Origin: Eledone cirrhosa
Taxonomy: Eukaryota
Direction: 5' to 3'
DNA: 64,000 nt
NCBI GenBank assembly: GCA_964016885.1
Contig: OZ024765.1
Location: forward strand, 9,858,001 to 9,922,000
Position numbers and translations under genes: made by a program
Shown: positions 2,969-60,886 of the stretch, piece after piece
Layout: the number at the start of each line of letters is the position of its first letter
How positions within the stretch are numbered: the first letter of the stretch is position 1
The notes under the pieces: model-generated
Told to the model about the DNA's origin: nothing
Databases searched by the model: none
Seen by the model: the letters and a program-made list of their open reading frames with translations, nothing else

Positions 2969-3128
2969 TATTAAAATAACAGATTAAAGTTTAAGCAAAG
3001 AATCGCTGCTTTCACCCTTTAATCTGTTATTTTAATAAATATTTGCTCTTCGGTTCTTATATATTTGATATATATTTTCCTTATCGAGCCCTCTCTGGAT
3101 TTTAGTCTTCAATTTTATTATTATTACT
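2969..3128. mobile_element. Family D (TA)n insert with a small fold-back
   Basis: An inverted 3' half of the family D ribozyme is followed by the forward 3' region (TTTAATCTGTTATTTTAATAAAT...ATCGAGCCC). Homologs lie at 31281, 40285, 49197 and 52320. Confidence 0.7.
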
Positions 3129-3656
3129 ATATATATATATATATATATATATATATACACACACACACACAAACATACATACATATATATATATGTCTGT
3201 GTGTGTGTATATTTTCAAAGTTAATTAAAACCCAATGGGTGTATATTATATACATTATATATGATTAGAAATACGAAAAGGGGTAAAGTTAAAAAAGGGT
3301 TTTAGTACTTACTTTAGAAGAACCGAAATTTAAAGCACCAAAACATAGATTGGACACTTTTAGGCCGCTGTTACCGAGGTAGTTGTAGTCAACACTTACA
3401 GCCATGACTTCATATAGGGTATGGAGACTGCTGGATATGTGTGTATATGTGTGTATATGTGTGTATATGTGTGTGTATATATATATATATATATGTATGT
3501 ATATTTATAGAGATATATAATAAGAAAATGCGAAGTAGTTTCAGATGTTAAAGTCCTTTATTGATAGGGCTGTGATACATATATACACACATGTATATAT
3601 ATATATATACACACACATGTATATATATATATATATATATATATACATATATTTAT

Positions 3657-4975
3657 ACACTACACTATACTTTACTACACTATATTAAACTATACTATAC
3701 TATACAACACTACACTATACTATACAACACTACACTACACTACACTTCACTATACTACACAATACTGCACTATACTACATTACACTACACTATACTACAC
3801 TACACTATACAACACTATACTACACTACACTATACAACACTATACTACACTACACTATACTATACTACACTACACTACACCACACTATACTTTACTACAC
3901 TACACCACACTACACTATACAACACTACACCACACTACACTATACTACACTACACCACACTACACTACACCACACTACACTATACTACACTACACCACAC
4001 TACACTACACTTTACTACACTACACCACACTACACTACACTACACCACACTATATAACACTATATAACACTATATAACACTACACCACAGTATACTATAC
4101 AACACTATACTACATTATACTATACTACACTATACTACACTATACAACACTACACTACACTTTACTACACTACACCACACTACACTATACAACACTACAC
4201 TACACCACACTATACTATACTACACTACACCACACTACACTACACTTTACTACACTACACCACACTACACTATACAACACTACACAACACTACACTATAC
4301 TACACTACACCACACTACACTACACCACACTACACTATACTACACTACACCACACTACACTACACTTTACTACACTACACCACACTACACTACACTACAC
4401 CACACTACACTACACTTCACTACACTACACTTCACTACACTACACAACACTACACTATACTATACTACACTACACCACACTACACTATACTACACTACAC
4501 CACACTACACTACACTACACCACACTACACTACACTACACCACACTACACTATACAACACTACACTATACTACACTACACTATACTACACTATACAACAC
4601 TACACTACACTTCACTACACTATACTATACTACACTATACAACACTACACTACACTACACTACACTATACAACACTACACAACACTACACTATACTACAC
4701 TATACAACACTACACTACACTTCACTACACTATACTATACTACACTACACCACACTATACTATACAACACTACACTACACTTCACTACACTATACAACAC
4801 TACACTATACTATACTACACTACACCACACTATACTATACAACACTACACTATACAACACTACACTACACTTTACTACACTATACAACACTACACTATAC
4901 TATACTACACTACACTATACAACACTACACTATACAACACTACACTACACCACACAACACTACACTACACTATAT
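3657..4975 (+). repeat. (CACTA)n degenerate pentanucleotide satellite
   Basis: About 1.3 kb of TACAC/TATAC/CACAC 5-mers. A reverse-strand tract of the same repeat lies at 8680-8935. Confidence 0.95.
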
Positions 4976-5552
4976 ACTCTACTATGCTATACATGCTGAT
5001 ATTTTTCTCGAGGCCTAAAATATGAGAGTTGCTTGATTGTTAATTAAAATGCTAACGAAGCTACTTATATTTCAATAGCCGTGTGTAAATTATCAGTAAC
5101 TGTGAACAAACATCGTTAGCTTTGTGTTTAGAAAACTACAGGCCTGAAGATATATGGGGGAGGGCTGACTATAAAGGAGTGATGCTATTGCTGTGAAATC
5201 TTGCATGTATTAATTTCGACTCTTCTTGTGAATAACTACATTACTTCTTTACAGGGACTATGTTGAAAAAATAAACCTCCATGAGAGTATCTTGGTCAGC
5301 TTATGAAGGAGTGATGCTAGAGCTGTGAAATCTTGCATGTATTAATTTCGACTCTTCTTGTGAATAACTACATTACTCCTTTACCCAGCGGTCATCCTCC
5401 ATGCACATCACATGTCCATACCATCGCAGTCTTCGCTCCCGCACACTACAACTTATACCTCTTAAACACAGTTTCTATATATATACTACTGCCAAAACCT
5501 ATGAGCACAACAAATATATATATATATATATATATAGTTTTAATATAGATGA

Positions 5553-5601
5553 GATTCTACAGGACTAGAACTGTTTCATTCTTTAGAAATCATCAGGAAT
5601 C
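5553..5601 (-). ncRNA. Hammerhead ribozyme, family A
   Basis: rc: GATTC-CTGATGA-TTTCTAAAGAAT-GAAA-CAG-TTCTAGTC-CTG-TA/GAATC. Stems I, II and III all pair, and the cleavage triplet is GUA. Confidence 0.8.
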
Positions 5602-5799
5602 AGAAATGTCCGTAATCTCCAGCAGACAACTGATGATGGGAAATATCCCCCGTTTGTGCTTTCCTCTTATTTCTAAATACACTTTATCCAGTAACCACAC
5701 AGCCACCAGTTTCTTCTATAATTTATATATATATATATATATATATATATATAATTTTTTAAAAAATGATCGCTCTACATGGCTGAATACAATAAATGT

Positions 5800-5981
5800 A
5801 ATCTGAGATTTTCGAATATTAATAATAATTGATTGATTTGCAATTCTGTACTTCTGTTTACATGCCAACACAAGATCAATAATGAGAGGCTCATTCTACT
5901 GACATGGCTTTAAAAATGAGGCTGTTTGCATAATTACAAACGAATCGAATATTTTTATTAATATTCGAAAAACTCAGATTA
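5800..5981. mobile_element. Imperfect inverted-repeat (MITE-like) element
   Basis: AATCTGAGATTTTCGAATATTAATAA near 5800 is the reverse complement of TTATTAATATTCGAAAAACTCAGATT near 5955-5980. Confidence 0.5.
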
Positions 5982-5989
5982 GCTCTATG

Positions 5990-6136
5990 ATTTGCATCAT
6001 AGAGTTACGCCCCTTTACGGTCTGAGTTCAAATCCCGCCGAGGTTAACTTTGCCTTTCATCCTTATGGGGTCGATAAAATAAAGAACCAGTAATACAGTG
6101 GTTTAATTGCTGGCCTTGTGCCAAAAGTAGAAACAA
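5990..6136 (+). mobile_element. SINE family S1
   Basis: Same B-box, core and 3' end as 1391-1562. Confidence 0.85.
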
Positions 6137-58240: not shown

Positions 58241-58554
58241 TAACGAAGGAAATGTGGTAAGGAACCAGGTGGACCATAAAGCACTAAAGTACTCAATACT
58301 TGGGGTAGTAGAGTGGGTAATAGGAACCAGTAAGACCCCGACGGCTGAGCTCAAGCCGTTTCGACGGCTAATTCTGGACTGAATTAGCCGTCGAAACGGC
58401 TTGAGCTCAGCCGTCGGGGTCTTACTGGTTCCTATATATATATATATATATATATATGAAAAAGTATGACCCCTATTTCCCACTCTACTACCCTAAGTAT
58501 TGAGTACTCTGGTGCGTTATGGTCCATCTGGTTCCTTACCACAATTCCTTTGTT
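58241..58554. mobile_element. Two family B inserts (58241-58433 fold-back, and 58457-58554)
   Basis: Palindrome 58320-58433 centred on stem II. Confidence 0.8.
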
Positions 58555-59107
58555 ATATATATATATATATATATATATATATATATATATATATATATAT
58601 ATATATAAATATGATCGAGCTGTCCGCCAGCGAAACAATTCTAACACACAATAAACATTATTGTGTTCTTTTTTATTTGTCATCATTTGCCCTTGGTATT
58701 TTTCTACCACATTGTACCGGCTTTTTGAAAATATCAATCCTTTATGACACACACACACACAGAGACACACACACACACATATATATATATATATATATAT
58801 ATATATATATATATATATATATATATATAATTGGTTATGCACGAGTGCATTAAGGTTTTCCAGGACACAGTGTTATGTACCGTGTAGGGGAAGGTCAGCT
58901 TACAACAGAGTGGTGCTCAACGAAATGCAGAAAATAGGTGTATATTCCAGTTTAGCTATACTTCGGGGCGTGTATAAAGAATTAAAAAGAACAGAAAGAT
59001 GCAGTAAAAGAGATTTATTCGATTCTAACGTACGTTTCAATAGACATCAATTTGCCTAGATCTCGCTGCATCTATAATATTATATAGTTAGTAGAGCATT
59101 ATATATA

Positions 59108-59330
59108 CAGGGTGTCCCCCAAAAAACGTATATACATTTTTTTTAAGCATTAAAATAAATTCTGTTTTATATGCATTAACAATTATTTAAATTATGTAAA
59201 CATTTTGGGTCTTTACATACAACTGAATTATGTCTGTAGATGATTTTATTTTGGGGAAAGGCTGTACATTCTAATAAATATTGCATGTAGAGGTAATCAA
59301 AGTGTGTATATATTTTTGGGGAACACCCTT
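59108..59330. mobile_element. Tc1/mariner-type MITE, longer relative of 20843-20940
   Basis: TA-CAGGGTGTCCCCC...GGGGAACACCCT, with a shared internal segment in opposite orientation. Confidence 0.7.
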
Positions 59331-59881
59331 ATATATATATTTACCCACTCTACTACCCTAAGTATTGAGTACTCTGGTGCGTTATGGTCCATCTGGTTCC
59401 TTACCACACCTCCTTCGTTTTATATATATATATATATATATATAATATATAAGATCAAAAGATGGTTAAAGGAGTTCCATGTATTTTATTATGCGCATTT
59501 CAAAAACAAACATCATCATGCAATAATATTTGTGTTTTCATCAGATAAAACAGGAGAACAGTCCTACAAACTGTAGAGTGCTTCTTATCCGATATCTGCA
59601 TTGCTTTATTGTATTACAATAAAACTCACCTCCTACATATATATATATATATATATATATATATATATATATATATATATATATATATATATATATATAT
59701 ATGGTTTTCAAAATTAAATGTGAGATGGAGAGTTTGAAAAGCATAAGAACTGTGAAACCAGGTAAAGGTAATAAATAAATATTCTAAATAAATAAATAGA
59801 TATTCTTAAAAAGATTCCAGTTGCATTTTCGATTTATTTTCCTTACACACAGACACATACATGTATATAAATATATATATA

Positions 59882-60000
59882 TATTCCGATGAAATGACAG
59901 TTGATAATAACATTGAAATATTGAATGTCTACATAACTAATACTTTGTAGATAGCAGCTGTTTTCAGGTTATGTAACTGTTATAGAAACACGTGTCAATA
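59882..60000 (+). ncRNA. Hammerhead-like motif with long stem II (U4C core)
   Basis: TATT-CCGATGA-A-ATGACAGTT...AACTGTTAT-A-GAAA-CACGTG-TC/AATA(AA). Confidence 0.65.
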
Positions 60001-60275
60001 AATTCCTTCTTAACTAAACTGTATCCATTAAAATCCTTCTATATATATATATATATATATATATATATATATATATATATATAGTAACACAACAGTTAGT
60101 TCACCATACTGAGAACAATTGTCTCTGGGTATCGTGAACTAACTGTTGTGTTACTACTTCTACCAAACTCGTCCTCCTATGGACTGAGTACTTTACCACT
60201 ACCGATATTACCTTCCAGTGTTCTAGCCCTCTCTCTCTCTCTCTGAAAAACCACAGACCCTCCATCTCGAGTCTA

Positions 60276-60311
60276 CTTTTGAAAAGCAGAAGAACTGCGA
60301 AACCGGTAAAG
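60276..60311 (+). ncRNA. Hammerhead ribozyme, family K (U3-A8 core, best copy)
   Basis: CTT-TTGAAAA-GCAG-AAGAA-CTGC-GAAA-CCGG-TA/AAG, then AATAAA. Other copies lie at 24870, 59732 and 46393 (minus). Confidence 0.65.
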
Positions 60312-60886
60312 GAACCAAATAAATTTTTTTTTTTTTTAAATAAGACTCCAGCTGCATTTTCGATTTCATCTTTTTTTTCTTTATACTTTCACTCGGTTAT
60401 TTTTCATTTTGTAAAAAAAACCCTCACTTTCTAATAAATATATATATTGCATTCGGTCTCCGCGCAATGGTCCAGGTCAATCAAAAATTTTTTCCTGAGT
60501 CCAACCATTTTCGTTGCTATGGCAATGCGGCTGGACAGCCGATCGCTATATTTGATTTGCAAAGCTGTCTAAACGTATTGTTATTACTCTGGGGTACTAT
60601 TCTCTATCGAGTGCTAAAGCTACATTCCGAAATTGCATTCGTTAGCTTAGCCGCAGCCTAAAGCTTCGTTAATGCTGTACTAAAATTTGTATATATATAT
60701 ATAGTATTAATTATACTATTTATGGTTATGTAAATACAAAAACCTTTTGCAGTTATATATATTTTTTTATACAAACCTTAAATAGTGGTAGGCAGTAATA
60801 TATTACTACCTTATTACCAGTAAGTTAAGTAGCTCAATGTAAATGGGTGAAAAGGAGGTCATATAACTGTTCATTCATTAATAAAT

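What the first reader, a model, noticed from the sequence alone, without database searches (positions are those of the whole stretch)
3045..60612. Second conserved structure downstream of the ribozymes: bulged hairpin RCTC-[stem-loop]-(1-2 nt)-GAGY in about 9 unrelated families
Seen in families with no other similarity. A: ACTC-TGC-TAT-GTA-TT-GAGT (25217-25235). B: ACTC-TACT-ACCCTA-AGTA-TT-GAGT (6433-6456). L: ACTC-GTCC-CAT-GGAC-T-GAGT (6219-6238, also 60167-60189). E: ACTC-CA-CTAAAT-TG-TT-GAGT (52788-52807). H: CTC-TAC-TTCG-GTG-TC-GAG (31198-31215). J: GCTC-TG-GTACTTA-CA-TA-GAGC (minus 28441-28461, also 51447-51467). M: ACTC-TAAGG-ACCTAC-CCTTA-TT-GAGT (54118-54143) and ACTC-TGGGG-TACTATT-CTCTA-TC-GAGT (60586-60612). 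An orphan reads GCTC-GGAAG-AGCCC-CTTCC-TG-GAGC (46841-46865), and D has GCTC...TC-GAGC (3045-3089). The inner stem covaries, the outer pair switches between A-U and G-C, and the bulge (usually starting with T) is always on the 3' side. Where a ribozyme is present the hairpin lies about 25-60 nt past the cleavage site. I know of no description of this motif. Inference: it is a cis signal for the element's RT/endonuclease, or a processing or splicing element of the pLTR.
Basis: partly seen in the sequence, partly recalled or inferred. Interest (0 to 1): 0.85.

Follow-up and report, generated by a model that had tools for sequence, protein, structure and literature searches.

The report
Twin hairpins mark retrotransposon insertion ends
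A small bulged hairpin occurs twice in the leader of Hydra-clade Penelope-like retrotransposons, each copy sitting a few bases past one of the element's two insertion ends, and it likely tells the reverse transcriptase where to start, which would explain the long-puzzling 'tail' of these elements.

Summary
The hairpins are real: all coordinates match, and the window holds 30 hits against 4.4±2.1 in shuffles. The families are not unrelated. Six of them (A, B, D, E, J, L) lead into ORFs of Hydra-clade Penelope-like elements (PLEs).

The full motif is N-CTC-[stem-loop]-TN-GAG-N'-(RCT). It usually occurs TWICE in the 5' leader, between hammerhead and start codon: 24 of 26 metagenomic Hydra-like lineages have at least one copy and 16 have two. 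It is also visible, unremarked, in published coral and sea-cucumber consensi. The outer pair covaries (G-C, A-U, U-A).

Insertions end mostly 0-6 nt (up to about 20) upstream of hairpin 1 or hairpin 2, so the PLE tail is the interval between them. In an unselected 464 kb, 43 of 47 head-to-head insertions had one end at each hairpin, and none had both at the same one. A prospective search found the predicted second hairpin for family E.

Best model (inferred): each hairpin binds the RT/endonuclease and sets an internal priming site just 5' of it, one per nicked (TA)n strand. This gives a candidate signal for the two-site internal initiation reported for a Poseidon PLE. No biochemistry was done; DNA-level endonuclease recognition remains possible.

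The parts
3045..3089 (+). Family D hairpin 1 (long inner loop). The inverted arm starting at 2964 ends 2 nt before it; the tail ends at about 3127, 4-6 nt before where hairpin 2 lies in ORF-bearing copies
6219..6238 (+). Family L hairpin 1 (1-nt bulge); tail ends at about 6278
6312..6504 (+). Complete family B head-to-head insertion: (TA)n, inverted arm ending at site 1, direct arm with hairpin 1 (6433-6456) and tail to site 2, (TA)n
   Evidence: hairpin 2 and ORF in L277
7454..7991 (+).
25056..25279 (+). Family A head-to-head insertion: minimal type I hammerhead (core 25151, cut after about 25189), hairpin 1 at 25217-25235, tail to site 2
   Evidence: full 713-aa ORF in L063
28393..28621 (-). 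Family J insertion; hairpin 1 at 28441-28461, tail ends about 7 nt before hairpin 2 of ORF-bearing copies
31197..31216 (+). Family H hairpin (outer U-G pair) after a palindromic hammerhead pair; no ORF-bearing partner found
46790..46928 (+). Orphan: short palindrome, arm ends 5 nt before hairpin 46841-46865 (GAGC-TTA variant, also seen in an ORF-bearing Hydra-type family, L343/L344)
51407..51605 (-). J-like insertion with hammerhead; hairpin 51447-51467, arm ends 3 nt before it
52409..52872 (+). Family E head-to-head insertion; hairpin 1 at 52788-52807; tail end lies before hairpin 2 and an ORF in other copies
54118..54143 (+). Family M hairpin; tail to about 54222; a SINE-like repeat lies directly upstream; partner ORF not found
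60082..60228 (+). Family L head-to-head insertion; hairpin 60167-60189
60586..60612 (+). M-like hairpin with two G-U pairs on this strand; tail to about 60689
2304..63154 (.). Further hairpin-1 copies. B: 2304, 18631, 48685, 58482, 59347 (+); 44644, 57105, 58291, 61210, 63131 (-). A: 2446, 18768, 27314, 44447 (-). D: 31320 (-)

Best explanation
The motif is a conserved bulged hairpin present in two copies in the leader of Hydra-clade Penelope-like retrotransposons, each lying just 3' of one of the two insertion ends, and it likely acts in the RNA as the binding site that positions the element's RT/endonuclease for internal target-primed reverse transcription. Inferred steps: (1) the endonuclease nicks both strands of a (TA)n target; (2) each nicked 3' end anneals to a short UA stretch about 3-8 nt 5' of a hairpin, one strand at hairpin 1 and the other at hairpin 2 of the same RNA; (3) both cDNAs run upstream, often off the RNA 5' end, and are joined head to head. 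Shown: one end lacks and one end carries the tail, the tail is the interval between the two hairpins, and the priming-side hairpin is absent from the end it marks. It would follow that the abundant short 'families' are copies of the mRNA's own 5' end, and that ORF-bearing copies need tandem read-through or circular RNA.
For: Shown here: (1) Two-copy motif in Hydra-like leaders: 24 of 26 lineages have at least one, 16 of 26 have two, against 7 of 308 ORF windows; also seen by eye in Hydra-1_Ajap (two copies), Hydra-2_Ajap and Hydra-2_Amil consensi. (2) Covariation: outer pair kept in 57 of 58 (G-C 44, A-U 6, U-A 6, U-G 1; shuffle mean 40.3), with A-U in two separate clades and U-A in a third on a quick tree. 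(3) Ends at the hairpins. Family L copies picked by the endonuclease: 15 at site 1, 11 at site 2, 4 other of 30. BLAST ends in the two windows: L 59 of 61, D 37 of 38, J 12 of 12, A 63 of 92. Metagenomic loci: 12 of 21 against 3.9 expected. (4) Hairpin 2 found at the tail end of B (L277) and, prospectively, of E (253 matches against 17; 9 of 10 loci). (5) Head-to-head insertions in an unselected 464 kb: 43 site1/site2, 0 site1/site1, 0 site2/site2, 4 unclear. (6) TA lies at -8..-3 in 33 of 38 hairpins (shuffle 23.1). (7) Arm 5' ends peak about 30 nt after a TATA box (A) or at an Inr-like TCATT (B). From the literature: a purified Poseidon PLE protein extends both target strands, starts at two internal RNA sites that match the tail ends, and needs RNA 3' of them (PMC11167929).
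Against: No binding or priming assay was run. The strand test is inconclusive (G-U 14 against A-C 6, p=0.12) and cannot separate RNA from plus-strand DNA. Hairpin 2 is degenerate in A (GCAC-loop-GTGC without bulge; ends 5-11 nt upstream) and carries long inserts in J and L, yet their site 2 is used. Site 1 in A and J is up to 11-20 nt from the hairpin. With all loci pooled, 7 of 144 pairs were same-site. The hairpins are weak; some are absent from MFE folds. Another tail-forming family (49667-50055) has two ends and no such motif. Transcription starts are inferred, and E, J and L show no clear peak. Shuffle controls ignore relatedness.
Confidence: 0.66

Rival explanations
1. The hairpins act in DNA: the GIY-YIG endonuclease recognises them in a single-stranded or cruciform intermediate and cuts the AT-rich stretch just 5' of them, trimming or resolving the insertion at site 1 or site 2.
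For: Craig et al. attribute the tail to endonuclease-mediated resolution. Frangieh et al. cite earlier work that the tail is needed for endonuclease recognition of Penelope DNA (original not read). Some copies also START just upstream of a hairpin (e.g. L070, L144, L239).
Against: The simplest version (one cDNA folds back, and its copy is cut at hairpin 1) predicts that the tail-bearing arm is always at least as long. Instead the site-1 arm was longer in 66, shorter in 35 and equal in 13 of 114. Direct internal RT starts at tail ends were measured for a Poseidon element.
Confidence: 0.2
2. The hairpins are RNA-processing signals: transcripts are cut or terminated just 5' of each hairpin, and RT primes conventionally at these new 3' ends.
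For: Ends sit directly 5' of the hairpins; the elements already carry RNA-cleaving hammerheads.
Against: Independent RNAs would pair at random (about 48% mixed, given 70 site-1 and 49 site-2 ends), but 43 of 43 classifiable pairs were mixed. No Rfam family matched among the 150 listed best hits.
Confidence: 0.08
3. The hairpins serve translation control, packaging or splicing of the mRNA leader, and their closeness to the insertion ends is secondary.
For: Hairpin 2 lies 20-60 nt before the start codon in most lineages; D. virilis Penelope has a leader intron.
Against: This does not explain the near-nucleotide tie of both hairpins to insertion ends across families and hosts. Most copies lack a GT donor.
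Confidence: 0.05

Closest known systems
Hydra clade of Penelope-like elements (Craig et al. 2021, PMC8557442)
   Same: Single RT plus C-terminal GIY-YIG ORF, DKT, CxCX5C, canonical hammerhead, (TA)n targets, tail at one end. Four of six deposited new consensi show the hairpin or a variant by eye.
   Different: The paper describes no hairpin ('hairpin' and 'stem-loop' 0 hits in the main text) and gives tails of 30-40 bp. Here tails are about 55-105 nt and equal the hairpin spacing.
Poseidon element PAc of Anolis carolinensis (Frangieh et al. 2024, PMC11167929)
   Same: Two internal RT start sites bounding the tail; both target strands extended; RNA 3' of the start needed; AT-rich targets.
   Different: Different clade. 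[quoted passage not shown] By eye the printed RNA has a CUC/GAG hairpin about 9-16 nt after +111..118, but without the bulged inner stem; this is a lead only.
3' stem-loop signals of LINEs/SINEs and the R2 3' UTR (recalled, not from a call)
   Same: An RNA structure recognised by the element's RT for target-primed reverse transcription.
   Different: Those lie 5' of the start and are copied into each insertion. This signal lies 3' of the junction, is not copied from the site it marks, and is duplicated.
Non-LTR retrozymes (PMC7229834; bioRxiv 10.64898/2026.07.22.740005)
   Same: Short PLE-derived repeats with type I hammerheads.
   Different: Retrozymes are tandem arrays. These are dispersed head-to-head insertions that look like copies of mRNA 5' ends. 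Neither paper showed the motif in what was read.

Membership tests
Hydra-clade PLE | Single ORF, RT followed by C-terminal GIY-YIG endonuclease | tested here: met
   713-aa ORF L063 with YRDD at 346 and VY..YIG at 585; weak Pfam GIY-YIG hit, E 0.016
Hydra-clade PLE | N-terminal RWK motif and DKG changed to DKT | tested here: met
   SDKT at 115; RIRWR in A, RMRWK in J and others
Hydra-clade PLE | CxCX5C linker; CxxC and CxH around the conserved E and N | tested here: met
   CNCLNKEAC at 566; CxxC and CxH read by eye (the stricter regex missed them)
Hydra-clade PLE | No CCHH motif in the endonuclease | tested here: inconclusive
   Family L has no cysteine inside the GIY-YIG core; family A has two, spaced 8 apart rather than CxxC
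Hydra-clade PLE | Canonical hammerhead in the pLTR; insertion into (TA)n | tested here: met
   Cores in A, B, E, H, K, L and metagenomic loci; D has a variant core. Most ends abut TA or similar runs
Hydra-clade PLE | Short element, under 3 kb | tested here: inconclusive
   L fits; A carries a TA/TG-rich 3' region of more than 1.8 kb
Hydra-clade PLE | Groups with reference Hydra proteins in an RT phylogeny | not tested
   Reference proteins were seen only in a supplement and compared by eye; the tree has no reference or outgroup
Known Rfam RNA family | Match to a covariance model | tested here: not met
   The 150 listed best hits were all below gathering score, nearly all miRNA models on microsatellites or palindromes; 120 weaker hits not shown
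RT-binding cis element for TPRT | Direct binding and requirement for initiation | not testable with these tools
   Positional and covariation evidence only

The most novel reading that the evidence does not exclude
Hydra-clade PLEs carry two RT-landing hairpins on one RNA so that two protein molecules prime both strands of a cut microsatellite at once. This twin internal priming by itself produces the tail, the head-to-head inverted repeats and the need for tandem or circular templates, and equivalent paired signals may exist in other PLE clades.
Probability: 0.45. Interest if true: 0.85.

Novelty: new variant of a known kind. Interest (0 to 1): 0.72.

Why it matters
The tail and the tandem/inverted structure of Penelope-like elements are called undefined features of their cycle in the papers read, and internal initiation at two sites has been seen in vitro without a defined signal. 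A short, covarying, duplicated motif that predicts both insertion ends across distant animal hosts gives an exact mutagenesis target. It also gives a rule for finding Hydra element boundaries, and re-reads many thousands of short repeats in this genome as likely by-products of mRNA 5' ends. PLE RTs are the closest retroelement relatives of telomerase, so how they select an internal template start is of wider interest.

Tried and rejected
- Rfam scan: nothing relevant.
- The window has no PLE ORF.
- A single-protein metagenome scan found no loci; the profile scan did.
- The antisense control (10 of 26) is uninformative because the motif is nearly self-complementary.
- MAFFT did not align the variable loops, so pair counts come from anchored scripts; no covariance model or R-scape test was run.
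- Three pattern searches for what follows the tails of E, H and M returned mostly CA runs. Partners for H, K, M and the orphan were not found.
- M 'site 1' counts are SINE matches and were ignored; they formed no pairs.
- The careful tree did not finish; a quick tree was used, and two frameshifted rows (m150, m197) are unreliable.
- Dimer prediction of the N-terminal 330 aa gave no verdict.
- No solved structure matched.
- No RNA holder was listed, so no reads were laid.
- Earlier scan findings: none.
- In Naiad/Chlamys consensi only the first 10 hits of three 7-mers were viewed, none in a hairpin at an element end; this is not a systematic test.
- Simple fold-back as the only route was rejected; splicing was rejected.
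Full report
1. Observation. Every listed hairpin is present at its coordinates. One spelling of the motif occurs 12,932 times in the roughly 3-Gb own genome against 194 for the reversed control. No relevant Rfam family matched. The window is microsatellite-rich animal DNA with no PLE ORF; a cephalopod host is my inference from repeat content, not a tool result.

2. What the families are. Most hairpins lie in short head-to-head insertions: (TA)n, inverted arm, direct arm, extra tail, (TA)n. Following family A through the genome led to an RT/endonuclease fragment and then to many full ORFs. [quoted passage not shown] These are the features Craig et al. list for the Hydra clade (section 11), and its N-terminus resembles their Hydra proteins by eye. 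ORF-bearing partners were found for A (L063), B (L277), D (L254), E (L363-371), J (L250) and L (L227). None was found for H, K, M or the orphan. The families are therefore diverged relatives, and the motif is most simply inherited.

3. The motif is clade-wide and double. A profile of 62 homologues retrieved 78 metagenomic loci. The 46 with a readable N-terminus fell into 36 clusters. Of the 26 clusters with enough upstream sequence, 24 had at least one motif and 16 had two, against 7 of 308 ORF windows. The order is hammerhead, hairpin 1, hairpin 2 about 55-90 nt further, then ATG. In the consensi deposited by Craig et al. (supplement parts 52-53), read by eye, Hydra-1_Ajap has two copies, Hydra-2_Ajap and Hydra-2_Amil one each after the hammerhead, and Hydra-1_Crog a variant; Hydra-1_Amil ends before it and Hydra-1_Obim is unclear.

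4. Structure. With instances chosen by sequence only, the first three inner pairs form in 44 of 46, 29 of 39 and 22 of 27 given a 2-nt 3' bulge (shuffle means 36.4, 16.8, 10.9); other bulge registers fail. In a curated set of 58, the outer pair is G-C 44, A-U 6, U-A 6, U-G 1, mismatch 1, and the bulge starts with T in all (required by the selection). On a quick tree the U-A form marks one strongly supported clade and A-U appears in two separate clades; within B and E, hairpin 1 is A-U and hairpin 2 is G-C. Shuffles ignore relatedness. G-U against A-C was 14:6 (p=0.12). MFE folds show both hairpins in B, but only one or partial ones in two other leaders.

5. The hairpins mark the insertion ends. 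Family L copies selected by the endonuclease ended at two sites: 15 just before hairpin 1, 11 about 40 nt after it (three near-identical), 4 elsewhere, of 30 (counted by eye). In ORF-bearing copies of D, J, L and B, that second site lies about 3-7 nt before hairpin 2. BLAST ends across own-genome loci (partly biased sets) fell in the two windows for L 59 of 61, D 37 of 38, J 12 of 12 and A 63 of 92; 17 more A ends sit at +1, probably alignment overrun. In metagenomic loci 12 of 21 ends lay at -12..+1 of a hairpin against 3.9 expected, with cross-family partial matches left in. As a prospective test, the E tail end followed by RCTC gave 253 matches against 17, and 9 of 10 loci showed a full hairpin 2, 8 with an ORF start. 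A TA dinucleotide lies at -8..-3 in 33 of 38 hairpins, 20 of them at -6, where junctions merge into (TA)n. The tail is thus the interval between the hairpins.

6. One end each. In 464 kb chosen without regard to these elements (the window), head-to-head pairs were 43 site1/site2, 0 same-site and 4 unclear; a few pairs are the reference copies themselves. With 70 site-1 and 49 site-2 ends, random pairing would give about 48% mixed. All loci pooled gave 120 mixed, 7 same-site and 17 unclear. Arms are usually near-equal (median difference 5 nt; 85 of 114 within 30 nt), and the site-1 arm is more often the longer (66 against 35), which argues against simple fold-back of a tail-bearing cDNA. Arm 5' ends cluster 29-39 nt after TATAAAT in A (25 of 38) and at an Inr-like TCATT in B (-70..-60 in 44 of 73); D shows a weaker peak and E, J and L none.

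7. Mechanism. Shown: the two-copy covarying motif, its tie to both ends, and the one-each pairing. From the literature: PAc protein extends both strands, starts at two internal sites matching the tail ends, needs RNA downstream of them and is predicted to dimerise (PMC11167929, parts 1-3 of 4 read). Inferred: each hairpin binds the protein and positions priming just 5' of itself, the two nicked target strands use the two hairpins of one RNA, and the cDNAs run off the 5' end and join. Since a hairpin is not copied from the site it marks, ORF-bearing copies ending at site 2 would need tandem read-through or circular RNA. Exceptions: degenerate hairpin 2 in A, long inserts in J and L, looser spacing at site 1 in A and J, and a tail-forming family with no motif. 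A DNA-level endonuclease signal remains the main rival.

8. Novelty. Six full-text searches found no description of the motif. Read: Frangieh 2024 (parts 1-3 of 4; supplement text search empty; figures unseen); Craig 2021 (passages, section 11, supplement rows and parts 52-53); PMC3846280, PMC7229834 and PMC2377424 (passages); the 2026 retrozyme preprint (parts 1-3 of 5). The tail, its presence at one end only, and two-site internal initiation are already known; the signal and its duplication appear not to be. Subscription papers and Repbase were not searchable. Verdict: real, new variant of a known kind, interest 0.72.

Noticed in passing
L062-L101 (family A ORF-bearing copies): 7 of 38 copies begin within -2..+7 nt of the hammerhead cut and 6 begin at -55..-45, near the inferred transcription start; this suggests ribozyme-cleaved RNA is copied in vivo.
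   Followed up: partly
window 6312-6430; L112, L114: Family B's hammerhead has a long stem II that contains the TATA-like box and Inr, so transcripts from its own promoter would lack the 5' half of the ribozyme; only read-through RNA could self-cleave.
   Followed up: no
window 49667-50055; L373-L386: A different (TA)n-targeting palindromic family with two 3' ends and a tail of about 40-45 nt but no CTC/GAG hairpin; clade not identified.
   Followed up: partly
L031:3600-5400: Chimeric head-to-head insertion: a family L ORF arm joined to a family A arm that starts at A's site 1 and has an internal deletion.
   Followed up: no
L063, L064, L066 downstream of the ORF: Family A ORFs are followed by more than 1.8 kb of TA/TG-rich sequence with segments shared between copies, apparently carried as a 3' UTR.
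   Followed up: no
window 17465-18315, 53870-54115, 6050-6130: An abundant SINE-like repeat whose core resembles an HDV-like ribozyme (recalled, not tested); tandem at 17465, and lying directly before the M hairpin and the L copy.
   Followed up: no
window 24307-24828: A 20-nt tandem array (26 copies) whose unit matches the site-1 / hairpin-1 junction of family B.
   Followed up: no
L070, L144, L160, L239, L247: Some copies start just upstream of hairpin 1 or 2, often after a (TA)n run; possibly self-targeting of the AT-rich site.
   Followed up: no
genome-wide, families E and H: Tail ends ending in CA or GA can be followed by (CA)n rather than (TA)n runs (the patterns selected for this).
   Followed up: no
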